Positions 1,445-64,000 of a DNA stretch of 64,000 nucleotides are shown one piece after another; the stretch's first letter is position 1; each line of letters begins with the position of its first letter. A model generated the notes under the pieces. The model saw nothing but the letters and a program-made list of their open reading frames with translations, did not search any database and was not told the DNA's origin. The stretch comes from Eledone cirrhosa (taxonomy: Eukaryota): positions 13,888,001 through 13,952,000 of the forward strand of contig OZ024752.1 of assembly GCA_964016885.1 (NCBI GenBank). The letters are read 5' to 3'. Both the position numbers and the translations under genes were made by a program.

Positions 1445-1633
1445 TAATAATTTTCTACTTTCGGCACAAGGCCAGCAATTACCCAGTGTATTACTGGTAC
1501 TTTATTTTATCGACAACGTAAGGATGAAAGGCAAAGTTAACCTCGGCTGGATTTGAACTCAGAATGGCAAGGGCCGTAACTCTATGCATCAAAGCATGGT
1601 GTCCGACCCTCTACCGATACTGCCAATCCACCA
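1445..1633 (-). mobile_element. tRNA-derived SINE, family 1 (Meta-domain-like core)
   Basis: The reverse complement reads GGTGGATTGGCAGTATCGGTAG (A-box-like)...GAGTTCAAATCC (B box)...GTTAACTTTGCCTTTCATCCTT...GTCGATAAAATAAAGTACCAGT and ends in an AT-rich tail. More than 20 full or partial copies occur in the window. Confidence 0.9.
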
Positions 1634-13413: not shown

Positions 13414-13644
13414 CATATATATATATATATTTATATATATATATATATATATATATGCAGATAAATCTACCAAGAGTTTACGGTAGTGTCCAATCCGTAT
13501 GAAGAACTCAATGTATTCCGGATATCATGGAAAGAAGAGATGTAATGAAAATCCACTTTCGGTGAAAGATAAACGGTATACAGAGTCAAGATAAAATATT
13601 AAACAAATAATGAATAAACAATTCCTTATATTAAACAAAAAAAT

Positions 13645-13799
13645 TTCATTATTTAACGATCGTTTCTAGGGTATATATGTGTTATAATTGGTATGCATAT
13701 TCAACAGATCTATGTACAAAATTATACAAAATTATACAAATTATCAAGATTAAATATACATACCTAACACATATATACGCCGTCTTCAGAAATAATGAA
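13645..13799 (-). ncRNA. hammerhead ribozyme with very long stem II, family A (inverted arm)
   Basis: Reverse complement of 20368-20522. Confidence 0.75.
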
Positions 13800-14621
13800 G
13801 TATATTTATTGATAATAACAACAATTCAAAATATCAGTTCAAAATTGACCAATGAAAACACAAAGGGTTAAAAGCAGTTCGGTGTGTGTATATACATGTA
13901 AAATCCTTACACATATTTTACAAAAATGTGTGTATAATTTGTATACGCATACTAAAAAGATGGATGCAAACACAAAATTTCAAGGTTAATATCTCCGTAA
14001 GCTTAATGCGCTGATAAGATGCGCATTGATACTTATGGAGTCAAGCATATAAATATATTTTTTCATACTCACACATATCAGTATAATCACACATACATGC
14101 GCGTATATGCATAAATATACACATAACCACGAACATACAAACACACACACTCCCCCACTCACATTTATATATGTGGATATAAAATCATAAGCACATAGAA
14201 ATTAAATCACTCACATAAAACACTGGCACACACATTTCAAGATCAAGATACAGAAATTAGGTGGGAGGGGGGGGAGGGGTCAGTATTCAATTGTCTGAGC
14301 AGACTGCCTAATATAAATGTATCTATAAATTAAGAAAAATAAAAAAATAAAACAATAAAATATAATAAATATAATATAATATACATACACATACAGATAT
14401 ATATACACATACATACATGTACGCGCACATAGAGATATTTACGCATACACACATACACACATATATATACAGTCATACACACACATACACTTACACGAAC
14501 ATACACATACACATATAAAAAGATATATATATACACACACACACGCGCAACACATACACACATACACATATATATAAAAAAAATAGATAATAAAGATATA
14601 TATCCATATATATATATACAT

Positions 14622-14678
<57 letters not shown>

Positions 14679-14769
14679 TATACACATACATACACATACA
14701 TCTAAATATATATACACATACATACACACATACATGTACATACATGTACATACATATACGCACATCGAT

Positions 14770-14823
<54 letters not shown>

Positions 14824-14970
14824 TCACATAGACATATAGATACATACACACACAACTTACATACACACGTATATATATATATATAGATGTACCTTCATAC
14901 ATAGAATTAGATATATAATCATACATACATATGCACCTACTTATACTCATATATATAAATACATACGCTT

Positions 14971-16689
14971 TCTTTTAAAAATATTAGGTGTAAATCTTCT
15001 GCTTCTTTCCTACAATTTGATATAGATAATTACTATTCTTCTATATCACCTATACTCCTGAACAAAGCATTAATATTTGCTAAAAATAGATCTAATTTAA
15101 CTTCGGATGACATTAACATTATTACACATGCTAGACTAACACTTATTGAATTTCAGAATGAATACTGGACCAGAAACACATACAGTAATCTTTTTGATAT
15201 TACTATGGGTTCAAGCGATTCCGCCCAAATTACTGATCTTGTGGGCCTCTTTCTCCTTTTCAACATAAATGCCTCTTTTCCCCACCTCAAAGGTGGTTTA
15301 TATCGTGATGACTGTCTTCTTCTTTCTAACAACCTTAGCCTTTCGGAAATCGAAAAAAACAAAAAACATATTAGAACTTTCCTTAAAGACTATTATAATC
15401 TTAATATTACTTTTGAAAAAACAAGTAAAGTAGTAAATTTCCTAGATATAACTTTAGATTTAGCTACGGGTATATACCAACCTTACCATAAACCTAACCA
15501 AAACTTACATTACATACACTCACAATCTAATCACCCTAAATCTATCCTTAAAAACCTTGCATATAATATATCACTTAGAATTTCTAACCTTTCTTCTAAC
15601 CAAGATGTATTTGATAAAAATGCGACCTTTTATAATGAAGCTCTAGATAGAAGTGGCCACAAAAATAGATTAGAGTATATACCTTCTACTAAAAATACTG
15701 AAAGCATACAGCATAATATTACCAACAAACACCAAATGAAAAGTACACACCTAAATGCCACCCACAATATACCCCAAAATACTAAATCTTCTAATATAAA
15801 GTATAGTAACCCTCAAAAAACTACTCATCATACAACTATAATAAATATTAATAATAAAACTCCTAATAAAAAAGATAAAACACCTAAATCTACAAATATA
15901 ACTAAAAATAGTTGTGGTGAGATCATTAACATTAATCCTCCTAGTAAAAATCATGATACAACCTATAAAAATAATAAAAATAATAAACAACATAGAAACC
16001 GTAATAGACGAGTTACTTGGTATAATGCTCCTTTTAATTTACAAGTTAAGGATAATATTGCTAAAAAAATTTTTTATATCCTTGAGAAAAACTTCCCGCC
16101 AAACCACAAATACCATCAAATCTTAAATAGGTCTACAGTTAAATTCTCATACTCTACAACAAATAACATAAAACAAAATATAAGTGCATATAATGCATAT
16201 AAATGTAAGAAAACCATAAGTATACCACCAGTACATCAAATTAACAATAATATCTCCTCAAATACAGAATTAACGAAAGGATGTAACTGTAGAAACAAAA
16301 CAAACTGCCCATTAAAAGGTAATTGTCTTGTTAACAACATAGTCTATAAATGTAATGTTAAAACTAAAGATTCTATTTGCTCATATATAGGAGCTACCTC
16401 TAACAATTTTAAGACAAGGTTTAATACCCACAAGCATAGTTTTAAAAATGCCGCACTGGCTAATACAACATCTCTAGCAGAAAAAATCAATAGTTATAAA
16501 AATAAGAATATAAAATATGATTTGACCTGGAGTGTGCTCAAAAGAGCCACCCCTTATCAAAATAATAGAAAGGAATGTAGATTATGTTCCCAAGAACTAT
16601 TTGAAATAATGAAGTCTAAGGATATCTTATTAAATAAACGACAGGAATTAATTATATCGTGTAATCATAAACTTAAAAAAAACATTTAA
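14971..16689 (+). CDS. PLE reverse transcriptase + C-terminal GIY-YIG endonuclease (N-terminally truncated, frame open)
   Basis: The frame is open for 78 codons upstream of ATG 15205. Motifs: FLQFDIDNYYSSI (A), FDITMGS (B), GLYRDD (C), VNFLDITL, thumb SNHP, CNCR..CPL.GNC, IVY...YIG...R...H, CRLC..E, LLNKR.E...CxH. Confidence 0.93.
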   Translation, partial: SFKNIRCKSSASFLQFDIDNYYSSISPILLNKALIFAKNRSNLTSDDINIITHARLTLIEFQNEYWTRNTYSNLFDITMGSSDSAQITDLVGLFLLFNINASFPHLKGGLYRDDCLLLSNNLSLSEIEKNKKHIRTFLKDYYNLNITFEKTSKVVNFLDITLDLATGIYQPYHKPNQNLHYIHSQSNHPKSILKNLAYNISLRISNLSSNQDVFDKNATFYNEALDRSGHKNRLEYIPSTKNTESIQHNITNKHQMKSTHLNATHNIPQNTKSSNIKYSNPQKTTHHTTIININNKTPNKKDKTPKSTNITKNSCGEIININPPSKNHDTTYKNNKNNKQHRNRNRRVTWYNAPFNLQVKDNIAKKIFYILEKNFPPNHKYHQILNRSTVKFSYSTTNNIKQNISAYNAYKCKKTISIPPVHQINNNISSNTELTKGCNCRNKTNCPLKGNCLVNNIVYKCNVKTKDSICSYIGATSNNFKTRFNTHKHSFKNAALANTTSLAEKINSYKNKNIKYDLTWSVLKRATPYQNNRKECRLCSQELFEIMKSKDILLNKRQELIISCNHKLKKNI

Positions 16690-19033: not shown

Positions 19034-19359
19034 GTGTGTGTGTATATATATGTGTGTGTATGTATATATATGTGTATGTATGTGTGTATATATATATATC
19101 TCTATTAATGCGTGTGTGTATGTATATACATGTGCCTTTTTATTATTATTTTTATTTGTATGTCTGAGTTTGGTGAGGTTGTATTGTTTTTTATGTATAT
19201 ACACATATATGGAAGCGTATGTATTTATATATATGAGTATAAGTAGGTGCATATGTATGTATGATTATATATCTAATTCTATGTATGAAGGTACATCTAT
19301 ATATATATATATACGTGTGTATGTAAGTTGTGTGTGTATGTATCTATATGTCTATGTGA

Positions 19360-19401
<42 letters not shown>

Positions 19402-19492
19402 ATCGATGTGCGTATATGTATGTACATGTATGTACATGTATGTGTGTATGTATGTGTATATATATTTAGATGTATGTGTATGTATGTGTATA

Positions 19493-19547
<55 letters not shown>

Positions 19548-20367
19548 ATGTATATATATATGGATATATATCTTTATTATCTATTTTTTTTATATATATG
19601 TGTATGTGTGTATGTGTTGCGCGTGTGTGTGTGTATATATATATCTTTTTATATGTGTATGTGTATGTTCGTGTAAGTGTATGTGTGTGTATGACTGTAT
19701 ATATATGTGTGTATGTGTGTATGCGTAAATATCTCTATGTGCGCGTACATGTATGTATGTGTATATATATCTGTATGTGTATGTATATTATATTATATTT
19801 ATTATATTTTATTGTTTTATTTTTTTATTTTTCTTAATTTATAGATACATTTATATTAGGCAGTCTGCTCAGACAATTGAATACTGACCCCTCCCCCCCC
19901 TCCCACCTAATTTCTGTATCTTGATCTTGAAATGTGTGTGCCAGTGTTTTATGTGAGTGATTTAATTTCTATGTGCTTATGATTTTATATCCACATATAT
20001 AAATGTGAGTGGGGGAGTGTGTGTGTTTGTATGTTCGTGGTTATGTGTATATTTATGCATATACGCGCATGTATGTGTGATTATACTGATATGTGTGAGT
20101 ATGAAAAAATATATTTATATGCTTGACTCCATAAGTATCAATGCGCATCTTATCAGCGCATTAAGCTTACGGAGATATTAACCTTGAAATTTTGTGTTTG
20201 CATCCATCTTTTTAGTATGCGTATACAAATTATACACACATTTTTGTAAAATATGTGTAAGGATTTTACATGTATATACACACACCGAACTGCTTTTAAC
20301 CCTTTGTGTTTTCATTGGTCAATTTTGAACTGATATTTTGAATTGTTGTTATTATCAATAAATATAC

Positions 20368-20522
20368 TTCATTATTTCTGAAGACGGCGTATATATGTGT
20401 TAGGTATGTATATTTAATCTTGATAATTTGTATAATTTTGTATAATTTTGTACATAGATCTGTTGAATATGCATACCAATTATAACACATATATACCCTA
20501 GAAACGATCGTTAAATAATGAA
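20368..20522 (+). ncRNA. hammerhead ribozyme with very long stem II, family A
   Basis: UUCAUUAUUU-CUGAAGA-[116-nt hairpin]-GAAA-CGAUCG-UU/AAAUAAUGAA. It has a perfect 10-bp stem I and a palindromic stem III. Confidence 0.78.
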
Positions 20523-20567
20523 ATTTTTTTGTTTAATATAATGAATTGTTTATTCATTATTTGTTTA

Positions 20568-21962
<1,395 letters not shown>

Positions 21963-23478: not shown

Positions 23479-23721
23479 CAATATAAACAGTCTTATAAAT
23501 AGATAGATTTGACATACCTTACAACTTCAACTTCCATTTAAAAAGTTGATTTTTAAAATCAACTTTTTAAATGGAAGTTGAAGTTGTAAGGTATGTCAAA
23601 TCTATCTATTTATAAGACTGTTTATATTGTTTATATTGTATTTTGTCTGATGAAGGCATACCATACACATACCGTATGTCAAATCTATCTATTTATAAGA
23701 CTGTTTATATTGTTTATATTG

Positions 23722-24083: not shown

Positions 24084-25050
24084 GTAGATAAATCTACCAA
24101 GAGTTTACGGTAGTGTCCAATCCGTATGAAGAACTCAATGTAATCCGGATATCATGGAAAGAAGAGATGCATTCAAAAATCACTTTCGGTGAAAGATAAA
24201 CGGAATACAGAGTCAAGATAAAGTATTAAAAAAAATAATGAATAAAACAATGATAGAGTTCCTTATATTAAACAAAAAAAGTTCATTATTTAACGATCGT
24301 TTCTAGGACATATATGTGTTAGAATTGGCATGCATATTCAACAGATCTATGTACTTTCTGCATCTAGATGTAAATATATGTGGCAGTGCTTATGTGCGCG
24401 CCTTCATGTCCATATGCTTATAATAATAATATATACATATATGTGTGTGTGTGTGTGTGGGTGTGTGTGTGTGTGTATGTTCGTGGTTATGTGTATGTTT
24501 ATGCGTATATGCGCGTGTGTGTGTGAATGTATGTATATATGTGTGTATATATGAATGTATATATGTTTATATACGTATGTGTATTTTATCTGTAGATTAT
24601 AAACATACAGAGACATTAGCCCTGAATTTTTGTATTTACATACATTTTTTCGACATGCGTATGCATGTGAGCATATATTTTTATGCATATCTGTGAACGA
24701 AGTTACTTACATATATACACACACCTAACTGTATTTTCTTGATATATTTTTGTGTATTTCATTGGTCAATTTGAACTCTGTTCCCAAACAGACCTGTAAT
24801 TTTGAATTGTTGTTATTATCAATAAATATATTTCATTATTTCTGAAGACGGCATATGTATGTGTTGGTATGTATATTAAATTTGATAGTTTGTATAATTT
24901 TGTATAATTTTGTACATAGATCTGTTGAATATACATGCCAATTCTAACACGTATATGTCCTAGAAACGATCGTTAAATAATGAACATTTTTTGTTTAATA
25001 TAAGGAACTGTTTCATTGTTTTATTCATTATTTTTTTTAATACTTTATAT
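24084..25050 (+). mobile_element. short fold-back copy of family A terminus (diverged subfamily)
   Basis: Inverted arm 24084-24355 plus sense arm 24356-25050, which is homologous to 19911-20576. Confidence 0.88.
24832..24984 (+). ncRNA. long-stem-II hammerhead, family A
   Basis: Stem I, core and stem III are identical to 20368-20522. The 114-nt stem II carries substitutions that mostly keep pairing. Confidence 0.78.
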
Positions 25051-38623: not shown

Positions 38624-38725
38624 CAGAGGTCCTACTATCAGTCATAAATATACGATGTAGCACTTATTGCATGGCTGGAAGAAGTGAGCTAGCAATTATG
38701 TTAGTATAGACCCAATGAAGCCTGC

Positions 38726-39030
38726 ATTTCTACCATACCATATATGCTGTATATAAAAACTCTACTTTTCTACCATACCATATATGCTGTATATGAAGAC
38801 TACATTTCTACCATACCATATATGCTGTATATAAACACTCTACTTTTCTACCATACCATATATGCTGTATATGAAGACTACATTTCTACTATACCATATA
38901 TGCTGTATATGAAGACTACATTTCTACTATACCATATATGCTGTATATGAAGACTACATTTCTACTATACCATATATGCTGTATATGAAGACTCTATATT
39001 TCTACTATACCATATATGCTGTATATAAAA
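38726..39030. repeat. 38-42-bp minisatellite TTTCTACYATACCATATATGCTGTATATGAAGACTACA, ~8 copies
   Basis: Direct inspection. Confidence 0.92.
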
Positions 39031-40397
39031 ACTACTTTTTTTCTTGGAACTGTCAGATACAAGATTTGCTTCCTTCCGAACCCCTTTTAGGGTCACGGGA
39101 TACGCAATCTTTGTGCGTCCACCAACCCTTCCCAGAACATGTCGCAGGCCCATCAGTAGTTTTTTTGGCGGAAGGACGATGCGGTATGGTTCTCTTTCTT
39201 ACCTCTCACCATATTCCAGGTTTGGTGGTCTTATTCGCACAAGTCACCAATCTGCTACCTTCCCAAACCAGTGAAAAACTGCCAGAGAGTATTTATTTAA
39301 AGTTACACCCATATTCATATAACTAATAGCCATATAGATATAAAAAGATATTTGTATAAGATTCATAGAAAACTGTATATTTTTTATGTCCTTACTTTTC
39401 TCGGCATAAGCAGGATCGTTGGATCATGAACATGAAAGGGTATGACGTTGTATTAGCTACACAATTAATATTTCATATATCTTCATAGAATTCCTTCATA
39501 GGCAGCTTGCCTTTAGTCCTACATTATTGAACACGTCATTGTCGATATAGTCAAAATATATATTTTTTATAATATGAATTCAGTTGTTCATTAATAGTGG
39601 TTTTATCGATTAACATTCAATAAAGACGTCAACTTAACAGGAAGTGCGCTGCTTTTTTTAGTCATGATTTTATCTGTCTTTTTCTTATATAAGAACAATT
39701 TCCTCTACCTATTTCATTAATTAACAAGCTTAATTATATATTTATATTCCTTTGGTCATGTTATAAGTTGCAAACTACTAATCGAGCATTAAACATTAAA
39801 TATTGTTCAAAGAATAATTTACTTGGTGATAGATTTTGTGTGTATAGACACAGATAAATCAGTTTCTTCTTTTAAGCACACGGGGAGAGGAAAGTCGATT
39901 AAATCAACCCCAGTACTTACACGTGCTTCCTATCGACCTCGTAAAGATGAAATACAAAGCTAACTTCAGCGGGATTTGAATTCAGAAACTAGAGAGACAT
40001 AACTCCATGCTGCAAAGCATTGTGGCCACGCTCTACTGATACTATCTATCGCCCTGGTGATAAATAATGGGCAATGAATGAAAAAGCAAGGGGGAAATTG
40101 TGTGTGTGTGTGTGAACACAAAGGAACCAAACTCCTACTGTCACCACCTTCATCAATCTTGCCCTTCCCATCTCTCACTATTATGAGCAAATGGGGCCCA
40201 CGCACTGGCCTCCCCGTAGCCCCGGTGGACGGAATAGAGAAGGAAATGAGGATTAATGGGAAATGATTGCAAGCGTTGACTGTGATAATATCTGAAACAA
40301 TTAATAGCGTTAAAAAACTGTTTGCTAAATGAATAGAATCAACTTTTAATTAAATTCCCTTTTATTCTTGTGAGGATAATCTTAGGAGTAAAGAAAA

Positions 40398-42717
40398 ACA
40401 CCATAGTTTCATGCATAACCACAATACCAGTAATACACCATAGTTTCATGCATAGCCACAATACCAGTAATACACCATAGTTTCATGCATAGCCACAATA
40501 CCAGTAATACACCATACTTTCATACATAGCCACAATACCAGTAATACACCATAGTTTCATGCATAGCCACAGTACCAGTAATACAACATACTTTCATACA
40601 TAGCCACAATACCAGTAATACACCATACTTTCATACATAGCCACAATACCATTAATACACCATAGTTTCATACATAACCACAATACCAGTAATACACCAT
40701 ACTTTCATACATAGCCACAATACCAGTAATACACCATAGTTTCATACATAACCACAATACCAGTAATACACCATAGTTTCATACATAGCCACAATACCAG
40801 TAATACACCATACTTTCATACATAACCACAATAGCAGTAATACACCATAGTTTCATACATAGCCACAATACCAGTAATACACCATAGTTTCATACATAGC
40901 CACAATACCAGTAATACACCATACTTTCATACATAGCCACAATACCAGTAATACACCATAGTTTCATACATAGTCACAATAGCAGTAATACACCATACTT
41001 TCATACATAGCCACAATACCAGTAATACACCATACTTTCATACATAGCCACAATACCAGTAATACACCATAGTTTCATACATAGCCACAATACCAGTAAT
41101 ACTCCATAGTTTCATACATAACTACAATACCAGTAATACACCATAGTTTCATACATAGCCACAATACCAGTAATACACCATACTTTCATACATAGCCACA
41201 ATACCAGTAATACACCATACTTTCATACATAGACAAAATACCAGTAATACACCATCGTTTCATACATAACCACAATACCAGTAATACACCATAGTTTCAT
41301 ACATAACCACAATACCAGTAATACACCATAGTTTCATACATAGCCACAATACCAGTAATACACCATAGTTTCATACATAGCCACAATACCAGTAATACAC
41401 CATAGTTTCATACATAACCACAATACCAGTAATACACCATCGTTTCTTTCCAAGCCACAATACCAGTAATACACCATACTTTCATACATAGCCACAAAAC
41501 CAGTAATGCACCATACTTTCATACATAACCACAATACCAGTAATACACCATAGTTTCATACATAGCCACAATACCAGTAATACAACATAGTTTCATACAT
41601 AGCCACAATACCAGTAATACACCATAGTTTCATACATAGCCACAATACCAGTAATACACCATAGTTTCATACATAGCCACAATACCAGTAATACACCATA
41701 GTTTCATACATAGCCACAATACAAGTAATACACCATACTTTCATACATAGCCACAATACCAGTAATACACCATAGTTTCATACATAGCCACAATACCAGT
41801 AATACACCATACTTTCATACATAGCCACAATACCAGTAATACACCATACTTTCATACATAGCCACAATACCAGTAATACACCATACTTTCATACATAGCC
41901 ACAATACCAGTAATACACCATAGTTTCATACATAGCCACAATACCAGTAATACTCCATAGTTTCATACATAACTACAATACCAGTAATACACCATACTTT
42001 CATACATAGCCACAATACCAGTAATACACCATACTTTCATACATAGCCACAATACCAGTAATACACCATACTTTCATACATAGCCACAATACCAGTAATA
42101 CACCATCGTTTCATACATAACCACAATACCAGTAATACACCATACTTTCATACATAACCACAATACCAGTAATACACCATAGTTTCATACATAGCCACAA
42201 TACCAGTAATACACCATAGTTTCATACATAACCACAATACCAGTAATACACCATAGTTTCATACATAACCACAATACCAGTAATACACCATAGTTTCATA
42301 CATAGCCACAATACCAGTAATACACCATAGTTTCATACATAGCCACAATACCAGTAATACACCATAGTTTCATACATAACCACAATACCAGTAATACACC
42401 ATCGTTTCTTTCCAAGCCACAATACCAGTAATACACCATACTTTCATACATAGCCACAATACCAGTAATACACCATACTTTCATACATAGCCACAATACC
42501 AGTAATACACCATACTTTCATACATAACCACAATACCAGTAATACACCATAGTTTCATACATAGCCACAATACCAGTAATACACCATAGTTTCATACATA
42601 GCCACAATACCAGTAATACACCATAGTTTCATACATAACCACAATACCAGTAATACAACATAGTTTCATACATAGCCACAATACCAGTAATACACCATAC
42701 TTTCATACATAACCACA
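40398..42717. repeat. 37-bp minisatellite ACACCATAGTTTCATACATAGCCACAATACCAGTAAT, ~62 copies
   Basis: Direct inspection. Rare unit variants recur at 851- and 962-bp spacing (23 and 26 units). Confidence 0.97.
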
Positions 42718-42719
42718 AG

Positions 42720-43360: not shown

Positions 43361-43723
43361 AGAGTATTTGGCGGCAATAGAAATAGATTAACCGCATCTC
43401 CAAAGCATTACAGCTTCAAGACATGCGATGCTTCTCAATAGAACTATTATTTATATCAAAATGGGGGTAAATTAAACGAAAAGGTATCTGACAGTTCGAA
43501 GAAGAATGATTAATTGCTTTGTTCTGTGGATACAAATTATCAGCTCTATTTGCCTGTCTACCTCGTGCTTTTCCTCCTTCCAGAGATTTAACCACTTGGA
43601 CCTATTATTGTTTCCCTAAATTATCTTTCTATAATTATTTCTAATCTATACGTATGGGCAAAAGTTGATGAGTGCACCGTCGATAATATCGACTCCTCTA
43701 CGTAAGTGGTATTATATCTAACT

Positions 43724-44316
43724 GGGCGGTGGATTGGCAGTATCGGTAGAGGGTCTGACGCCATGCTTTGCAGTATAGTGTTATGGCCCTTTATGTTCTG
43801 AGTTCAAATCCCACCGAGGTTAACTTTGCCTTTCATCCCTACGGGGTGATAAAACAAAGTACCAGTAATTCACTAGGGTAATTGCTGGCTTTGTGCCAAA
43901 AATAGAAACAATTATATTTGACTGGGTAATGGATTGGCAGTATTGGAAGAGGGTCTGACGCCATGCTATACAGCAAAGAGTTACGGCCCTTTACGTCCTG
44001 AGTTCAAATCCCACCGAGGTTAACTTTGCCTTTCATCCCTACAGGGTCGATAAAACAAAGTACCAGTAATTCACTGAGGTAATTGCTGGCTTTGTGCCAA
44101 AAATAGAAACAATTATATTTGACTGGGTAATGGATTGGCAGTATTGGAAGAGGGTCTGACGCCATGCTATACAGCAACGAGTTACGGCCCTTTACGTTCT
44201 GAGTTCAAATCCCACCGAGCTTAACTTTGCCTTTCATCCCTACAGGGTCGATAAATCAAAGTACCAGTAATGCACTGGGGGTGATTGCTGGCCTTGTGCC
44301 AAATGTAGAAACAATT
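43724..44316 (+). mobile_element. tandem trimer of SINE family 1 (~199-bp period)
   Basis: Three units, each ending in AGAAACAATTATATTTGACTG. Confidence 0.9.
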
Positions 44317-45786
44317 ATATTTGACTGACCCGGGAGGAAGGAAAACAAAGTAGATCCGGACATGATTTGAACTGAGAACATACTAGAACGGAACAAATAT
44401 AGCAAAGCACTTCTTTATACACGTGAAGGATTCTGTATGACCACCGCATTAATTTGCTTTACTTGTTAGACGTGTGTGTGTTTTTTTATTTACAATCATT
44501 TATAACTTTGCCTATTAATCCGTATGGTTAGAAAATGGGGTCCCAGGAACTGGCCTCCCCACAGCCCCGGCGGACAGGATGGAGAAGGCGTTTCGCCGGA
44601 GGATGGTAAGGGAGATGCGCTGGAAGAGCCATTCCAACTCGCGAGGCTCACACCTGTGGCCGGCCAGCTCAGCGCCTATGGTGCTGAATAGGGAGGTAGC
44701 CCTAGGGCTAGGACACCAGAAGTCTCCACTGCCAAGGGCACGACCGCGAACCTTTCGGAGAGCGACCGGTACTTGGAGACTTTGGCCTCCTCAGCCCGAC
44801 GTGCAACAGTACCTGGGTTTACTATAATGAAGAACATCTCTATTTGTTGGGAATGTTTGTAGCATAAATGTTTAGGCTATACAAAAATGTAGATGGTCCA
44901 CTTAGTTTAAGAGACTGTTAAGTGTGGACCTAGCTTGGCAAAGCTGTGTTCCAATACAACAAGCAAAGTTTAGAATATTTTCAATGCTAGTGTTTTGCAT
45001 TTTTTGAAGATTCGTAGATGTGGCTAATCAAATTTTATTGTCGTCAAATAGTTTTCTTAACAGCTATTATTTTTTGGCGACATTACATTCCCTTTGCAAA
45101 TGGCTTTCTAAAAGTTTCGTCTTTTATTTAGTGGGTATTTATCAACATCTTTATTGCTAATGCTCATGGCGCTATAAAATTTATGCTAGTCGTTTTTTTA
45201 AAGCCATATTTTAAAGAAAACCATTTTCTCTAATGCTATGTCATATCATTCTAATATTTAAGGCGGATATTCTTTATTATAAGTGTTCGACTCTTTACTG
45301 ATTTAGTATTGTCATTAATTTCTTCATTTTCCTTTTTAACACACAGGAAGGTTTGAAATTCCAGGTGTGTAAAAGTTTGCTATCAGGCGATTACGGCGAC
45401 GAATTGGCAGAGTCGTTAGAACGTCGGACAGAATGGGTTATGGTATTCGTTCAGGCTTTCTGCTCTCTGAGTTCAAATCCCACTGAGGTCAACCTTGCCC
45501 TAAATCCTTTCGAGGTCGATAAAAAAGTACCAGCCTGGTACTGGGGTAGATTCTTCATCCCTCTGGAAGAAATCTGCTGTACTCAGGCCTGGAGAGGGAT
45601 GGGCTCCACCAGGCTTAAAATACCCAAGAAACGCCGAATGTCAATACGGCACCCCTTCGACTCTATCAGGAGTTACAGGATCAGGGAAAACCATGCGTTA
45701 CCTGATTAATTCTAGGTAACAGAATATAAATTTGTGTGTGATCAATTCCCTCGTGTTTTCCTTTTTCCATTTAGTTATATTTATAT

Positions 45787-49070: not shown

Positions 49071-50840
49071 GGAAAGTTATATTTAAATTGTTGGGTTAAC
49101 AACGAGTAAATATTTATAACTGATATAAAAGCACTCAACAAGTATTTGGAGTATATTTATGATTTTAAATAAATGTAAACTATATTTATAAAACCATATT
49201 TATTTCATTATATATATTTCAGGGATATCATATTAACAATATGTTATGCCTTCATCAGACAAAATACAATATAAACAGTCTTATAAATAAATAGATATGA
49301 CATACCTTTTAATCGACTTGCATTTGGGAAGTTGATTTGGCAGTAAAAAATATTGTGGACAGTTGTAAAAAGATAGAGAGAAAGAAAGAAAGAAAGAAAA
49401 ACGAAGAAAAAGAAGAAATGCATGTGACTAAATAGAGAGATATAGAAAGATAGATAAAGAGAAGAACTTCATGTAAAGGAACAGAGAGAGATATATAGAG
49501 AGAGGAAAAAAAAAAAAAAGATAGATAGAGATAGATAGAGAAACTAGGTAGTTGAGTATCAATTGATACATTTATTTATTTATTTATTTAGCTCTAGTAT
49601 TAATGTAAAGAGAGATGTATGTAGTTAAGAGAGAAAATAGCCGTTATATAGAGAGAAAAAAGAGAAAATGAAAAAGAGAAAATGAAAAATAACCAGACAT
49701 AAACGAGGCAGAATTTAAAAACGCTATGTTTCATCATGTAGAAAATATTAGTTCGTATAAAACAGGCATTATAATGTAAATATCAGTATTCATGAATGAG
49801 ACATGTATCTATAATATGTGAAAAGTAATGATCTTATGTCTAGTTTTTAAAAATTCATATGTTTATATCATAATTATAAACAAACTCCCAATTCACACGA
49901 AAACATTCTCATTGTGCTATAAAAATTCAAGTATACATATATGTGTGTATATATACACATATATATAGAGTCTATATTAATTTTAACAATACTATTCTTG
50001 TCTTTACTCTACATGATTGTCGATCAAGCAGAAATAGAGAACAGATTTCAATATATTAATAAAAATAAAAATAAAAATAAAAATAAAAATAAAAATAAAA
50101 ATAAAAATATCAGAGACAAGAAAATAAATAAATAAACAGAAAACTAAAACATTTAATATTAAAAATAAAAAATAAAAATATTATAAAATATTAAAAAAAT
50201 ATTAAAAAATAATAAAAATAAAACACAGTATGCCACGCAAATCGGCCACAAAGGTCAGCCTTTCAAAGTTAATTGACAATATATTGCCAAGTTCATCATA
50301 AGCATCAGAGTCGAAACAGATAAAACAAAAATCCTGTCTAGCAGAAATCATTCCAAAAGTTTAGGATACCCATTTGGTCTACATATGTTCTTATATTTAA
50401 TATAGAAGTTTATCTAGTGTAAAATTTAATTCGATATATTTGGAGCATCGGCTTTTAGGGTAGTTTAATTATTCATGAAGAATGTTTTAATAAAAAGAAT
50501 GTTTTAATAAAAAGAAGAAATCGAAAGATTTATCGGCTAGTTTCATAAATAATTATGAATCAAATCAAACATAACTACATTTTAAATTTAAATTTATATT
50601 TAAACGTTGAGTTCAATCTATGTCTGCAGCAACTGAATAAATTTGTCCGTAGATTAAGGGAATTTTTAGATTTTAGTATAAAGAATATCTCCTCCTCACA
50701 GAGGTCACATGTCTCAGAGGATGAATTAAAAGGAATCCCTCTTGAAACTATATTCCATATATTGTTAATATGATATCCCTGAAATATATATAATGAAATA
50801 AATATGGTTTTATAAATATAGTTTCCATTTATTTAATATC
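49071..50840 (-). mobile_element. PLE family B (Nematis-type) 3' fragment with short inverted end; HHR at 49201-49266
   Basis: Minus strand 50760-50573 translates [28 protein letters not shown]...LNLRTNLFSCCRH (GIY-YIG C-terminus). 50761-50840 is an inverted copy of 49165-49240. Confidence 0.88.
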
Positions 50841-54866: not shown

Positions 54867-56610
54867 AAACTTCGCTATAATAATCATAAGAATTCTTTCA
54901 CAGATCCAGGCAAAAAATCTTCAACTTCACTATCAGGCTTACTCTGGCAACTTAAACATAATAACGTTGGTTATTCGTTGTTTTGGAATATAGTCTCAAG
55001 AGGGATTCCTTTTTAATTCCTCATCTGAGACATGTGACCTCGGCGTGGAGGAGATATTCTTTATATTAAAATCTAAAAATCCCCTTAATCTAAGGAGCAA
55101 TTTATTCAGTTGCTGCAGACACAGATTGAACTCAACGTTTAAATATAAATATTAATTTAAAATGTAGTATATTTAGTTAAGATATTTATTTAATTAATTA
55201 TGAAACCTGACGATAAATCTTTCGATTCCTTCAACTTTTTCTTTTTTTAAACCTTCTTCATATACTAATGATATAATTAAACTACCCTAAAACGTTGATA
55301 CTCCCAATCTATTGAATACATTTTACGCTAGATAAACTTCTATACTAAATATAAGAGCATCTGTAGAACAACAGGGTCGCCTAAATCTTTTAAATGATTT
55401 CTGCTAAATAAGTCTTGTTGAATAATTTTGGTTTTTTGTTTGCTTTTGATTCTGATTGCTTCTAATGAACTTGGCAATATATTGTCAGATAAACTGGAAG
55501 GGTTGATATCTGTGGTTGATATGGGGGGCATACTGTGTTTTTTTAAGGCCCTTGATACCCTAGGGAGTGATGAAAATATTCTTAGCGTTTAGATATATTG
55601 ATATCTGTTGTCTATTCTATGCATGAACGATAATCATGTATGCGAGGGCAGGAGTATTAATATTAATATATATTTTTATCTATGTGTATGTATGTATATA
55701 TATATATAGTAAAATCTTTTATAACGCAAAGGAAAATTTTTTCATGTGAAATGAGAAATTACAGAGCTGATCACGTATGTTCACGTGTATATCTATAGTG
55801 TCAACTACAACTTGAGATGACCTTCTCTTTTTCTCTTTCTTTCTTTTTCAGGAAAGTACATATATACTTATGTATTTTTGAGGTTTTATCTCAGGTTTTG
55901 ATATATCGACCTAAGAATTTTTAAACTAAACATATGGTCATTATTTTTCACACATTATATATCTATGTCTCATTCATGAATATTGATATTTACAGTATAA
56001 TACCCAATTCATATGAATTGATAATTCAAAATGATAGGACATAACGTAAAGTTGTAAATCTGTCATCCCTCTCTCTAGATATAGCTTTCTTCTCCTCCCT
56101 CTATACATGATGTAATTTAAGTATCACTGTTTCTTCTTTAGTTATTTTCTATCTTTCTCCGTCTCCTTAACACTATAACGAAATAAATAAATAAATAAAT
56201 AATTACAGTACTCCCTCCCTCATAAATCTCTCAATTTGTATGATGAATTATTATTCATCTGTTGCCTCAACTGCCTCTCATTTTTTCACCTCCTCACTAT
56301 TTCTCTCTCACGTATCTCTCTCTATCTCTCTCTGTTTTTCTTTACATACATTTATTCCTTCTCTCCGTCTTTCTTTCTTTCTAACTGTGCTTAACACTAA
56401 ATATTTACAAACATCTCACTACCAAACCAACTTTTTTAAATGGAAGTTGATCAATATTTTTATGGTACGTCAAATTTATTTATAAAACTTCTCATATATT
56501 GTATTTTATCGGAAGAAGGCATGCCATATTTTTAATATGGTATCCCTGAAATATGTATAATGAAATAAATATGGTTTTATAAATATAGTTTCCATTTGTT
56601 TAATATCGTA
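54867..56610 (+). mobile_element. PLE family B (diverged) 3' fragment; degenerate HHR (CGGAAGA) at 56502-56567
   Basis: Translates [11 protein letters not shown]...[11 protein letters not shown]...[10 protein letters not shown], +1 frameshift, NSSSETCDLGVEE...CCRH. The UTR is homologous to 49170-50570. Confidence 0.88.
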
Positions 56611-59704: not shown

Positions 59705-60491
<787 letters not shown>

Positions 60492-60626: not shown

Positions 60627-61305
60627 GTATATGTATATATGTATATGTATATATATATATAGGTATATATATGTATATATATATATGTATATATATGTAT
60701 ATATATATATGTATATATATGTATATATATATATGTATATATATATGTATATATATATGTATATATATATATGTATATATATGTATATAAATATATATAT
60801 GTATATATATATATGTATATGTATATATGTATATGTATATATGTATATATATATGTATATATATATATGTATATACATATATATGTATATATATATATAT
60901 ATGTATATACATATATATGTATATATATATATGTATATATATATGTATATATATATATGTATATATATATGTATATATGTATGTATATATATATGTATAT
61001 ATGTATGTATATATGTATGTATATATGTATGTATATATGTATGTATATATGTATGTATATATGTATATATATATGTGTATATATATATGTGTATATATAT
61101 ATGTGTATATATATATATGTATATATATATATGTGTATATATATATGTGTATATAAGGATTAGAATACTGGAGAGTGTTTGAGTCAAACAACCTCTTCGT
61201 ATTATAGAAATGACAGTAAAAGGTATAGCTCAATGCAGTTAAACAGAGCCGAAAAATTAAGAGAGTAAAACAAAGAATCCTTTAATACTTCAAAAGTTTT
61301 TATTA

Positions 61306-61343
61306 GCCGACAATGTTTCGTCCTATTAAGGACTCATCAGGGC
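61306..61343 (-). ncRNA. minimal type I hammerhead ribozyme (canonical PLE type)
   Basis: The reverse complement reads GCC-CUGAUGA-GUCC uuaaua GGAC-GAAA-CAUUG-UC/GGC, then AAUAAA. Confidence 0.9.
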
Positions 61344-62485
61344 AATCAAAACAACAAGAGGTAATTTCGGCAGATACAAGCCAGAAACTCTGAAGAATAT
61401 GGAGTTCACATACACTAATGTCTTACAAGCATATACGATAATAAAAATGAGGATAAAACTAATAAAATTATAATAACTAAGGATGTAGATGACATTAAGA
61501 ACCATATTACAAATATGGTCCAAAGTCACCAACTTAAATCTAAACAAATTTGGTTATATAGAACAGGAATTATATATAACACAGTATAATACATTCTAAT
61601 AATAATATATCTATACCAACACTGAAATTCCAAATCAAAAATCAAAAGGTACAATATATACATGTATATATGTGCGCACACACACACACACACACACACA
61701 TATTACAATACACATATCTATTTTCTATTACACAGAATTAAGCCTTATTGGAAGTTTAAACATCAAAAATATTAAAAATAAGCATGGTAATAGTGAAAAT
61801 AATGCTAATATATCTACCCAATATACATGGGGCAATAATTACAAGAAACACTTATAATAAATAATAAACAACAAAATTATATAATATAATACAATATAAT
61901 AAAGTAGAATATATATAAAATAAGAATATATATAATCTCCGGTTAATTTACAGAAACAATATAGATGTCACAGTGAAATACAATGATAAGTTGTTAACAT
62001 TATATTAACAATTACCATATTCAATATGTACAACATGGTTCTTATTGGGTTACATAATAAATGGGGAAATATCAATCATATAATATAATACAATAATACA
62101 ATAATACTAAAAAAAACTATATTGGTACAGGGAACAATTATGATGTTACAGAAAAAATATGTTGTTACAGAAAAAAATATGTTGTTACAGAAAAAATATA
62201 TATAGACATCTAAAGTCTAAATACCATAATGTTACATACTACAATATTAAAATATTAAAATATTAAAATATTAAAAAATATAAATTAAAAATTAAAGAAT
62301 ATATAAAGGTAATAACGTGTGTAATCTTATGTATACTAACAAGGTGTAATAGTGAAGACATAGATACGGTACAGTGGCTAAATGATTATGAGAGCTAGAA
62401 TGAAGAGTCATCAAAAACCAATGTTAACAATAGTGTTGGCAAACAAAAGAACCCAAACAAAGAACTAAGTAATGGAATATATCTG

Positions 62486-64000
62486 CTAAAGGGTACGATT
62501 TGTACTACTAGAACATTTGGGTTTATAGTAAAAGTAAGAATTAGAAATTGCATGGGGGCAAGAAGAGAATATCTCAGACTTTCTATTCAGTAAGGGTACG
62601 CTAGAGAAAATAATAGAGTGTATCTCAAGTATACAGAGATTACAAAACTTACTATGTGCAGAAAGGTGGTTAGATCGTGCTACTAAGCTCCAGTTAAGGC
62701 TATATGGTATACACGCTCCCTTAAGGTCCCAGATATAATGCGCTAGAGCGGTGGAATTCTTAAACCTAATATGCTTGAAGTTAGAGATATGAGAGTTAAA
62801 CCTAGTCTTAAAGGTGTTTGAAGTAGATCCTATATATTTTCCTTTAGAGGAATTAGTTATAACCTCACAAGCATAGACTATGTTTTTAGAAAGGCAGTTA
62901 CCGTTTAGAGGGCAGTTAGCACTCACTCTACAATTGCACTTCCGGGTGTTATTGGTTGGCTCAAGTGGTGATGTATTGCACCTAGGACCTCTATTAGATA
63001 AGGACTGTTCTGGTGGTAAAGCATTGTCCGATGCATTCAGGCTATTATTCTGCAGAGAGGAGAATCCATCCCTAATCTTCCTATTATTAGTGCTAGCTAA
63101 ATGAGAACTAATATTAGGGGTGGTAGAGAATGATAGTTTAATAACATTTTTATTAAAAATACCATGGTATTTGTGAGAAGGGGGGAAATGTTTCTCCAGG
63201 ATAGTGAAGAAAGACCTAGGCATATTAGTTGATACATCCTGGTTATATGGCGGGTTGAAATAAGTATTCAATCGCCTTCTATTTTTATTTTAATTTTTAT
63301 TCCTATCGACCCTACCTCTATCAAAAGTCACACCTTCAAGACCAGGGTTACTATCGGGAATATCTGAAGCCGCATTCATGGAATCAGCCATAATTACATT
63401 ATGCCTATTATCTGTTCTACCTCCAGTAGATCCACTGTTGTTCAGAGTCCCTACAAGAGGATTAAGGCCAATGAAAGGATTAGTAGGAGCAACATTACTA
63501 GAACAAGATCCAGCCAAACCAACACCAATGCGTGAGCGCACGGGGGGCTCGACTTGTCTCTTAGAGGTATTATATTTGTTACTACGAGTCCGGTGGGATA
63601 ACCTATGGGTGGGTTCAGATACTCCTATATAAGTTCTACGGTTACTAAGTTTGCTACTCGCATTCATAGCCATGTTATGTGATATAATGTTATTATTATT
63701 AAGAGTAAGCGGAGACTTTCTAAAGTTACTATTATTATAATTTATTTTACTAGAGTGACCTGAATTTGCTAGGGCGTTATTGTAGTACTCCGCATGCTCA
63801 TTAAAAGTTCCTATGTCCTTAGATAGTGTGGAAATCCTATTAGAAACGCCCTTAATTATAGAGTTTATCATAGACTTAGGGTGGTTAGAATTGGGGTTAA
63901 CATAAGAAAGAATTTCATTAGGCTTATGGAAGGGTTTAAAACTATTAGTGGCCAAGTCCAAAGTCACATCTAAAAAGTTAACCGCTCTATCATTTCTATC
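62486..64000 (-). pseudogene. PLE RT-thumb/GIY-YIG frame with a single in-frame TAA at 63290-63292
   Basis: AVNFLDVTLDL...HKPN...SNHP...DRNKN*NKNRRRLNTYFNPPY...CNCR...CPLNGNC...IVY...YIG..RFNSH...CNLC..E...LLNRKSE...CPH. The two track ORFs are in the same frame. Confidence 0.9.

What the first reader, a model, noticed from the sequence alone, without database searches (positions are those of the whole stretch)
20368..20522. Hammerhead with a ~115-nt, structurally conserved stem II (family A)
Seen: a perfect 10-bp stem I (UUCAUUAUUU/AAAUAAUGAA), CUGAAGA and GAAA-CGAUCG-UU enclose 116 nt. This insert folds as GUAUAUAUGUGUUA/UAACACAUAUAUAC (14 bp) plus GGUAUGUAUAUU/AAUAUGCAUACC (12 bp) around a ~40-nt loop with UUUGUAUAAU repeats. 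The diverged copy at 24832-24984 keeps core, stem I and stem III identical while stem II changes largely keep pairing (e.g. AAUAUACAUGCC). Established: PLE hammerheads are normally minimal, with short stem II. Inference: an unusual HHR variant that standard covariance models would miss, whose arm could be an RT-binding or (TA)n-pairing element. Caveat: the base of stem II next to the core (C opposite A) is non-canonical and the site is GUU.
Basis: partly seen in the sequence, partly recalled or inferred. Interest (0 to 1): 0.8.

Follow-up and report, generated by a model that had tools for sequence, protein, structure and literature searches.

The report
Long-armed hammerhead ribozyme in a retrotransposon
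A self-cutting-RNA (hammerhead) motif at the end of a Penelope-type jumping gene carries a side arm over four times longer than any listed for its relatives, and the standard RNA-family search misses it; the arm is predicted to fold stably, but cutting is untested.

Summary
The motif is real: a type I hammerhead (10-bp stem I, intact core, palindromic stem III, predicted cut after 20512) with a 116-nt stem II, fold z -6.7. It has three full copies and one partial copy here and ends a Hydra-clade Penelope-like element (ORF 14959-16689, inverted pLTR). Rfam misses it but finds a short sibling. Published Hydra stem II spacers are 12-26 nt. Arm changes mostly keep pairing (7 of 7 in the two main helices, one break just beyond), but formal covariation is not significant with two informative sequences. 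New here: an exact repeat of the stem I 5' strand 40-49 nt after the cut, in 4 of 4 copies, predicted to switch the fold off; sibling families with 31- and 36-nt arms share the stem II base; the arm also carries GT-AG intron-like signals, untested because no RNA run was listed. Nothing supports RT binding or (TA)n pairing. Verdict: new variant of a known kind.

The parts
20368..20377 (+). stem I, 5' strand
   Evidence: perfect complement of 20513-20522; identical in 3 of 3 full copies
20378..20384 (+). catalytic core box CUGAAGA
   Evidence: sequence; identical in 3 of 3 full copies
20385..20500 (+). 116-nt stem II arm: irregular 4-position base, 14-bp helix, 5-nt 3' bulge (20478-20482), 12-16-bp helix, distal part with 10-nt tandem repeats
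   Evidence: folds and pair probabilities; only structured 120-nt window of 14 along the pLTR end (z -5.7); tandem unit at 20415-20452
20501..20512 (+). GAAA box, 8-nt palindromic stem III (20504-20511), GUU site; predicted cut after 20512
   Evidence: sequence; two copies of this strand pair at -13.8 kcal/mol; identical in 4 of 4 copies
20513..20522 (+). stem I, 3' strand
20553..20562 (+). exact repeat of the stem I 5' strand (decoy), predicted to capture the 3' strand
   Evidence: present in 4 of 4 copies (20553, 25024, 13614 minus, 24242 minus); chance 0.0027 in shuffled 50 nt, post hoc
20404..20501 (+). possible 98-nt GT-AG intron inside stem II (rival reading, untested)
   Evidence: donor-like GTATGT at 20404, branch-like motif at 20480-20486, AG ending at 20501; no joint of this shape in 4 runs, none on record as RNA
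14959..16689 (+). 5'-truncated ORF of a Hydra-clade Penelope-like element (RT C-terminal half and GIY-YIG endonuclease), 576 aa stop to stop
   Evidence: motifs YRDD, CxCx5C, YIG, CxxC, CxH
19213..20572 (+). 3' end of the element (pLTR-like), ending at a (TA)n tract
   Evidence: 98.8% identical inverted copy at 13591-14970; one substitution outside repeat-length changes
13457..14970 (-). inverted copy of the element's 3' end, with the hammerhead at 13645-13799 and about 200 nt after the cut
24832..24984 (+). diverged full copy, 114-nt arm, within fragment 24352-25045
24085..24354 (-). partial copy that begins at the apex of the arm (equivalent to 20450) at an inversion junction and runs about 210 nt past the cut
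21027..21061 (+). detached 35-nt terminal piece ('tail') of the element inside the (TA)n tract; a second one at 21841-21875
   Evidence: matches the last 35 nt of the two longer copies

Best explanation
This is a type I hammerhead motif at the 3' end of a Hydra-clade Penelope-like retrotransposon, with a 116-nt stem II predicted to fold as one long hairpin that likely serves only to hold the two core boxes together; it would cut after U20512, likely slowly and as a dimer, and a downstream repeat of stem I is predicted to switch it off once about 60 more bases are made. Shown: the core, stems, palindrome, repeat, copies and link to the element. Inferred: (1) the arm folds locally during transcription and closes the junction, with selection on pairing rather than on sequence; (2) the 8-nt palindrome pairs with a second copy to make a stable stem III, as proposed for other metazoan PLE hammerheads; (3) cutting is limited to a short co-transcriptional window or needs the element's protein, so most transcripts stay uncut; (4) reverse transcription starts 60-210 nt downstream of the cut and reads back through site and arm, which is why every copy is continuous across the site. 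The arm is likely an extension of a shorter family-type stem II of about 32 nt.
For: Fold z -6.73; helix pair probabilities 1.0 in every context tried. Core plus stems I and III differ at 0 of 39 positions between the two diverged copies, arm 10 of 114, upstream 48 of 214 (arm vs upstream P 0.002). 7 of 7 substitutions in the two main helices keep pairing, one G-C/A-U double change. Population variants in other runs repeat this: of the 40 rows shown, 6 fall in the arm, 3 in helices (all pair-keeping, including both halves of the double change: 2166 of 2378 and 637 of 849 reads in X16) and 3 in bulge or loop; none in core, stem I or III. Sibling families B (31 nt) and C (36 nt) show the same plan of long AU-rich stem I, three basal positions, a C-opposite-C/U/A mismatch, an extension and an 8-nt palindrome; in C 5 of 5 changes in the 12-bp extension keep pairing, two of them U-G to C-G (read by hand). 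A DNA joint in X16 skips 84 nt exactly between paired positions 20400 and 20485 (13 reads, 2 starts), leaving a 32-nt hairpin. P(stem I) falls from 0.69-0.82 with 12 nt after the cut to 0.00-0.09 with 60 nt in 3 of 3 full copies. In PAc, uncut RNA is the main RT template, cutting needs the protein and RT starts downstream of the ribozyme (PMC11167929).
Against: No cleavage, probing or RNA data. Covariation is not above shuffles (249 of 500) with only two informative rows. The P 0.024 leaves out the break at 20415 and the deletion at 20402. Arm divergence (10 of 114) equals that of the downstream flank (5 of 50; P 0.78), so the contrast with upstream may reflect mosaic subfamilies; core vs arm P is 0.065. 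183 variant rows and 29 indel rows were not shown, and phase between variants is unknown; a 1-nt loss at 20401 (275 of 754 reads) shortens the 14-bp helix with no partner change seen. The stem II base is non-canonical: the preferred register leaves two extra bases before GAAA (P 0.95-0.96; 1.8 kcal/mol better than the C-A register), and C opposite A is in none of the 25 Hydra families listed (it is in PLE-X1_cBra). The folding model gives P(stem I) about 0 for 4 of 4 B copies and 1 of 2 C copies without any decoy, so it underrates AU-rich hammerheads and the switch-off numbers are weak. No exact decoy repeat was found after the nine sibling motifs. The 84-nt joint may be a library artefact or a related subfamily.
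Confidence: 0.5

Rival explanations
1. The arm is a neutral passenger: an inverted-repeat insertion or expansion in loop 2 that the ribozyme tolerates. Its pair-keeping changes come from A-to-I editing of the hairpin in the RNA template, fixed by reverse transcription, not from selection.
For: 7 of 10 arm substitutions are A/G against 1 C/T, while upstream is balanced at 13 and 14. The inner 84 nt can be lost cleanly. A sibling Hydra family in the same window does with 14 nt. The host may be a cephalopod, a group known for heavy editing (recalled; the only named homolog is from Octopus sinensis at 44% identity, and the window's SINE resembles octopus SINEs from memory).
Against: The A/G excess is not significant (P 0.10) and is also what selection on A-U pairs gives. 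The C/U change at 20496 and the U-G/C-G changes in family C cannot come from editing. Direction of change is unknown without an outgroup. Search one search listed no paper that, from title or abstract start, shows this for a retroelement hairpin.
Confidence: 0.2
2. Most of the arm is a 98-nt spliceosomal intron (20404-20501). Splicing would rebuild the GAAA box from the last exon base and leave a minimal 6-bp stem II, so the ribozyme would exist in spliced and unspliced forms.
For: Donor-like G|GTATGT (11 matches in 128,000 positions); a branch-like CTAAC about 15-20 nt before the AG in copy 2 and in most reads (1491 of 1725 in X16); the AG ends exactly at core G12 and would explain the odd A at 11.1. 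The remaining exon piece folds back with 6 pairs in both copies (chance about 0.045 each). PLEs keep introns in their pLTRs, and in D. virilis the intron end abuts helix I, giving two ribozyme forms (PMC4209133).
Against: All three signals are buried in or beside helices of a -44 kcal/mol arm; pyrimidine tract poor; the short stem is only -0.3 and -1.8 kcal/mol and the spliced RNA prefers a non-ribozyme fold by 4.0-4.6 kcal/mol; GTATGT alone is common here (286 matches); families B and C share the stem II base with no room for an intron; the signals were picked post hoc.
Confidence: 0.15
3. The ribozyme is catalytically dead or nearly so and the motif is carried as a protein-recognised structure.
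For: Irregular stem II base, stem I predicted disfavoured in context, every copy continuous across the site; cleavage is not needed for PAc insertion in vitro.
Against: Core identical in all copies and no core variant among the 40 rows shown; U-U basal mismatches and GUU sites are common in Hydra hammerheads, and a U-U basal mismatch is reported to support cleavage (PMC3088659 passage).
Confidence: 0.08
4. The arm binds the reverse transcriptase or pairs with the (TA)n target to prime insertion.
For: TA-rich arm strands; (TA)n is the clade's target; two inversion breakpoints map to the arm's apex (24354 in the window; joint at 13716 in X16, 72 reads from 1 start), so the enzyme does something there.
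Against: Arm strands are predicted fully self-paired; copy ends, which mark RT start sites in PAc, lie about 60-210 nt beyond the cut; Hydra families with 12-26-nt stems target (TA)n equally; breakpoints at the apex fit polymerase stalling as well.
Confidence: 0.07

Closest known systems
Hammerheads of Hydra-clade Penelope-like elements (Craig et al. 2021, PMC8557442, File S2)
   Same: Type I topology near the element's 3' end, (TA)n target, short stem III, GUU site in 10 of 25 families, mismatch at the stem II base in 15 of 25 (14 U-U, 1 U-C).
   Different: Spacer between the core boxes 116 nt against 12-26 nt; stem I 10 bp against 3-7 bp in most listed families (one has a bulged 10); basal mismatch is C-A or a two-base insertion; downstream decoy not described in the parts read.
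Minimal PLE hammerheads (Cervera and de la Pena 2014, PMC4209133)
   Same: Palindromic stem III implying dimer cleavage; an unpaired base after A9 in the preferred register, followed by G-C; location in pLTR.
   Different: Their helix II is 7-8 bp and helix I 4-5 bp; here about 45 predicted pairs in stem II. Their D. virilis intron ends at helix I, not inside stem II.
PAc (Anolis Poseidon) hammerhead (Frangieh et al. 2024, PMC11167929)
   Same: RT start downstream of the ribozyme, a short terminal tail, uncut RNA as template; an alternative fold is suggested there.
   Different: Different PLE clade; the PAc ORF starts inside stem II, whereas no ORF start was found in or after this motif.
Chlamys/PLE-X hammerheads marked 'deviates from canonical structure' (same File S2) and the discontinuous Clec2 hammerhead (via review PMC6155905)
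   Same: Natural hammerheads with long insertions: about 48-54 nt in stem II for PLE-X1_sTam and PLE-X1_sMoe; 150-1500 nt in helix I for Clec2.
   Different: Here the insertion is in stem II, over twice as long as the PLE-X cases and almost fully paired; Clec2 is type III, in an mRNA, with the insertion in helix I.

Membership tests
Type I hammerhead ribozyme | CUGANGA and GAAA core boxes, A15.1-U16.1 pair, NUH site | tested here: met
   CUGAAGA, GAAA, A20504-U20511, GUU
Type I hammerhead ribozyme | three helices around the core, stem I open | tested here: met
   predicted in the isolated motif; stem III is 2-3 bp as a monomer; stem I is disfavoured in longer context
Type I hammerhead ribozyme | 10.1-11.1 pair directly next to the core | tested here: inconclusive
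   either C-A mismatch or G-C with two extra bases before GAAA; mismatches here occur in 15 of 25 Hydra families
Type I hammerhead ribozyme | match to Rfam Hammerhead_1 | tested here: not met
   no hammerhead hit at E up to 10; positive control found. A model-length limit rather than a biological feature
Type I hammerhead ribozyme | site-specific self-cleavage | not testable with these tools
   no RNA run listed
Hydra-clade Penelope-like element | single ORF with RT then C-terminal GIY-YIG endonuclease | tested here: met
   YRDD at 115, YIG at 476; 102 homologs of like layout. Pfam is nearly blind: no RT hit on this ORF, RVT_1 and GIY-YIG each in 1 of 15 aligned members, weakly; no PDB hit
Hydra-clade Penelope-like element | CxCx5C linker, CxxC and CxH motifs (PMC8557442 section 11) | tested here: met
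   at residues 442, 540, 568
Hydra-clade Penelope-like element | N-terminal RWK and DKT motifs | tested here: inconclusive
   this copy is 5'-truncated; DKT and RWK/RWR are present in full-length homologs
Hydra-clade Penelope-like element | (TA)n insertion, inverted truncated copy, 30-40-bp tail, 3' hammerhead | tested here: met
   a locus fetched with this ORF's alignment (L009) carries the hammerhead listed for Hydra-2_aMil
Hydra-clade Penelope-like element | placement in an RT tree with reference Hydra sequences | not tested
   no tree built; reference sequences were seen only in the paper's supplement
Spliceosomal GT-AG intron | donor, branch point and acceptor motifs | tested here: inconclusive
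   motifs present, pyrimidine tract poor, sites in helices
Spliceosomal GT-AG intron | spliced junction in RNA | not testable with these tools
   no run on record as RNA

The most novel reading that the evidence does not exclude
Stem II is both a long hairpin and a spliceosomal intron, and a downstream decoy holds the ribozyme off: a retrotransposon ribozyme whose catalytic core is rebuilt by splicing, linking intron retention, self-cleavage and the choice between mRNA and RT template in Penelope-like elements.
Probability: 0.15. Interest if true: 0.82.

Novelty: new variant of a known kind. Interest (0 to 1): 0.48.

Why it matters
Descriptor and covariance-model searches cap stem II, so long-armed hammerheads are missed. 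What PLE hammerheads do is still open. This family gives a clean test set: one genome holds 14-, 31-, 36- and 114-116-nt versions, a natural 32-nt deletion form may exist, and the decoy offers a concrete reason why PLE RNAs are copied uncut. If the intron reading holds, splicing would directly remodel a ribozyme core.

Tried and rejected
No whole genome is held, so a genome-wide alignment was impossible. No RNA holder listed for 19850-20572 (18 runs, 0 on record as RNA); this says nothing on expression. Laying 4 of the 18 runs on 13440-14330 gave no joint matching the proposed intron; since PLEs keep introns in DNA and none of the runs is on record as RNA, this is not a test. Summed contig depth is roughly ten times higher over the motif and its tail than upstream (X1); I do not read it as copy number, and the drop may be truncation or subfamily divergence. 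An exact 20-nt pattern found 1 metagenome locus, L001, which has no upstream core or arm and looks like a chance match in a bacterial gene, and 0 viral loci. The protein alignment found 0 confirmed viral loci and 9 loci in genome contigs; 6 of the 9 had hammerhead-like motifs, all with spacers of 11-24 nt although up to about 255 was allowed (some of the 20 rows are likely chance). Shorter homologs gave no close or species-named hit. Whole-window Rfam was swamped by microsatellite miRNA hits, all shown ones below gathering score, 235 of 385 rows not shown; miRNA-family hits on the arm are E 2.5 or worse, so a miRNA precursor reading has no support. No ORF start or PLE N-terminus was found in the 200 nt after the cut. 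A two-monomer cofold gave strand-swapped pairing through the palindrome and stem I (-111.2 against -96.4 kcal/mol); suggestive only. Earlier findings of this scan: none. Lunse et al. 2017 on PLE hammerhead variants is not held.

Full report
Observation. The motif is at the stated place. Stem I (20368-20377 with 20513-20522) is a perfect 10-bp helix, CUGAAGA is at 20378-20384, GAAA at 20501-20504, and 116 nt lie between them. The 171-nt region folds at -49.1 kcal/mol, z -6.73, with 0 of 200 shuffles as stable; the copy at 24832-24984 gives z -3.67. The 14-bp and 12-bp helices have pair probabilities of 0.96-1.0. Of 14 windows of 120 nt along the element's end, only the arm is clearly structured (z -5.7; the others 1.8 to -1.9). 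The window holds two further copies: 13645-13799 on the minus strand, identical over the motif, and a partial one at 24282-24354.

Context. The motif ends a Penelope-like element. A 576-aa frame at 14959-16689 has YRDD, CxCx5C, YIG, CxxC and CxH motifs, and 102 homologs of like layout. These motifs are those given for the Hydra clade (PMC8557442 section 11). The stretch 19213-20576 is repeated inverted at 13591-14970 at 98.8%, the usual PLE arrangement, and the ends sit in (TA)n. Copies end about 60, 70, 200 and 210 nt after the predicted cut, and the last 35 nt recur as detached pieces at 21027 and 21841, like the 30-40-bp PLE tail. A locus fetched with this ORF's alignment carries the hammerhead listed for Hydra-2_aMil. 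Pfam and PDB add little and no tree was built, so the clade call rests on motifs and anatomy. The host is not given; a cephalopod is my guess from one named homolog at 44% identity and a SINE that I recognise only from memory.

How unusual the arm is. In File S2 of PMC8557442 (26 rows, 25 Hydra families, counted by hand) the spacer between the core boxes is 12-26 nt; two non-Hydra entries marked as deviating reach about 48-54 nt. In 9 related loci, 20 candidate rows in 6 loci have 11-24 nt. Rfam finds no hammerhead here at E up to 10 but finds the 14-nt sibling at 61302-61346 at E 2.5e-6. In the window, families B (31 nt; linked to Hydra endonuclease remnants at 50757-50605 and 54867-55128) and C (36 nt; no ORF seen) share a long AU-rich stem I, three basal positions, a C-mismatch at position 4, an extension and an 8-nt palindrome. 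Family A therefore looks like the long end of a local series.

Is the arm conserved as structure? Between the two diverged copies, core plus stems I and III differ at 0 of 39 positions, the arm at 10 of 114, upstream at 48 of 214 and downstream at 5 of 50. All 7 substitutions in the two main helices keep pairing (one G-C/A-U double change, five one-sided), P 0.024 for random transitions and 0.002 with 30% transversions. Left out of that count are a U-G to A-G break at 20415 and a deleted A at 20402. The formal test has two informative rows and is not significant (249 of 500). The arm is no more conserved than the downstream flank (P 0.78). Reads and contigs from 4 runs show the same trend: of 40 variant rows shown, 3 lie in arm helices and keep pairing, 3 lie in bulge or loop, none in the core; 183 rows were not shown and phase is unknown. 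One common 1-nt loss at 20401 shortens a helix. In family C, 5 of 5 changes in the 12-bp extension keep pairing. In run X16 a joint skips 84 nt exactly between paired positions 20400 and 20485 (13 reads, 2 starts) and would leave a 32-nt hairpin; this is either a natural short form, a related subfamily or a polymerase jump across the hairpin. I rate pairing conservation as likely, not shown.

An exact repeat of the stem I 5' strand lies 40-49 nt after the cut in 4 of 4 copies (chance 0.0027 in shuffled 50 nt, post hoc). A common 9-nt insertion (499 of 968 reads in X16) falls next to it and leaves it whole. Predicted P(stem I) drops from 0.69-0.82 with 12 nt after the cut to 0.00-0.09 with 60 nt in 3 of 3 full copies. 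The control is unfavourable: 5 of 6 B and C motifs get P(stem I) near 0 with no decoy, so the model underrates AU-rich hammerheads, and none of nine sibling motifs has an exact repeat.

Mechanism. Most likely the arm folds as it is made and closes the three-way junction; the 8-nt palindrome pairs between two copies (-13.8 kcal/mol) as proposed for metazoan PLE hammerheads (PMC4209133; PMC6765202 passages); cutting after U20512 is slow and confined to a short window or needs the element's protein; afterwards the decoy hairpin holds the RNA uncut. Reverse transcription then starts downstream and reads through the site, as all four copies require (or the RNA was re-ligated). In PAc, cutting needs the protein, uncut RNA is the main template and RT starts downstream of the ribozyme (PMC11167929). 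Every step past the anatomy is inference. Confidence 0.5.

Rivals. Neutral passenger with editing-derived changes (0.2): A/G changes dominate the arm (7 against 1 C/T; upstream 13 against 14; P 0.10). Intron in stem II (0.15): donor-like site at 20404, branch-like CTAAC in most reads (1491 of 1725 in X16), AG ending on core G12, and a residual 6-pair stem (chance about 0.045); against it, the sites are buried, the short stem is weak and siblings share the base without an intron. No run on record as RNA was available. Dead motif (0.08). RT binding or (TA)n pairing (0.07): only two inversion breakpoints at the arm's apex touch on it, and stalling explains them as well.

Literature seen. PMC4209133: parts 1-2 of 4, no supplements. 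PMC8557442: passages, section 11, supplement parts 1, 2 and 52 of 59. PMC11167929: parts 1-2 of 4. bioRxiv 10.64898/2026.07.22.740005: part 1 of 5. PMC3088659, PMC6765202, PMC10085705, PMC6155905: passages only. Martick et al. 2008 only through a review passage. Lunse et al. 2017 is not held and, like unread supplements and papers on Athena/Terminon hammerheads, may list longer stem II variants. Searches listed nothing describing a PLE hammerhead with a stem II over 100 nt or an intron inside stem II; the phrase 'long stem II' had 0 occurrences in the 20 papers listed of 917.

Verdict. Observation confirmed with small corrections; interpretation partly supported. New variant of a known kind, interest 0.48; 0.82 if the intron-switch reading (probability 0.15) is true.

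Noticed in passing
window 23470(-), 23730(+), 49258(-), 51827(-), about 56500(+, core damaged), partial 50759-50813: Hammerhead family B, 31-nt stem II, AUA site, palindromic stem III; follows Hydra endonuclease remnants at 50757-50605(-) and 54867-55128(+) in an inverted arrangement.
   Followed up: partly
window 13226(+), 9937(-): Hammerhead family C, 36-nt stem II with a 12-bp extension in which 5 of 5 changes keep pairing; no ORF seen nearby.
   Followed up: partly
window 64000-62516(-) and 61302-61346(-): Second Hydra-like element (one stop in frame near 63290) with a canonical 14-nt stem II hammerhead 1.2 kb downstream; found by Rfam.
   Followed up: partly
window 27410-26583(-), 26379(-), 10611(-): C-terminal ORF of another PLE type with a hammerhead-like motif (18-nt spacer) whose stem III and site look irregular (CUU).
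   Followed up: no
window 60124(-), about 28600(+), partial 60235-60269: Hammerhead-like family F, 14-nt spacer with U-U at the stem II base, in an inverted repeat at 59930-60400.
   Followed up: no
window 21027-21061, 21841-21875: Detached 35-nt element termini embedded in the (TA)n tract after the main copy, in the same orientation, about 810 nt apart.
   Followed up: partly
window 23491-23615: Near-perfect long palindrome at the junction of two inverted family B fragments; gives the top Rfam miRNA-type hit, below gathering score.
   Followed up: no
window 1445-1632 and about 20 other places, tandem at 43711-44327: A SINE of about 190 nt; resembles octopus SINEs from memory, not tested.
   Followed up: no
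window 40398-42718 and 38715-39039: Minisatellites of 37 bp (63 copies) and 38/78 bp.
   Followed up: no
L002-L010: Hydra-type PLE ORFs, six loci with hammerheads, lie on contigs filed in bacterial MAGs; likely animal host DNA binned with symbionts.
   Followed up: no
window 15700-16010: The ORF has an Asn/Lys/Thr-rich linker of about 100 aa between RT thumb and endonuclease; long in several close homologs, short in P0005/P0007.
   Followed up: no
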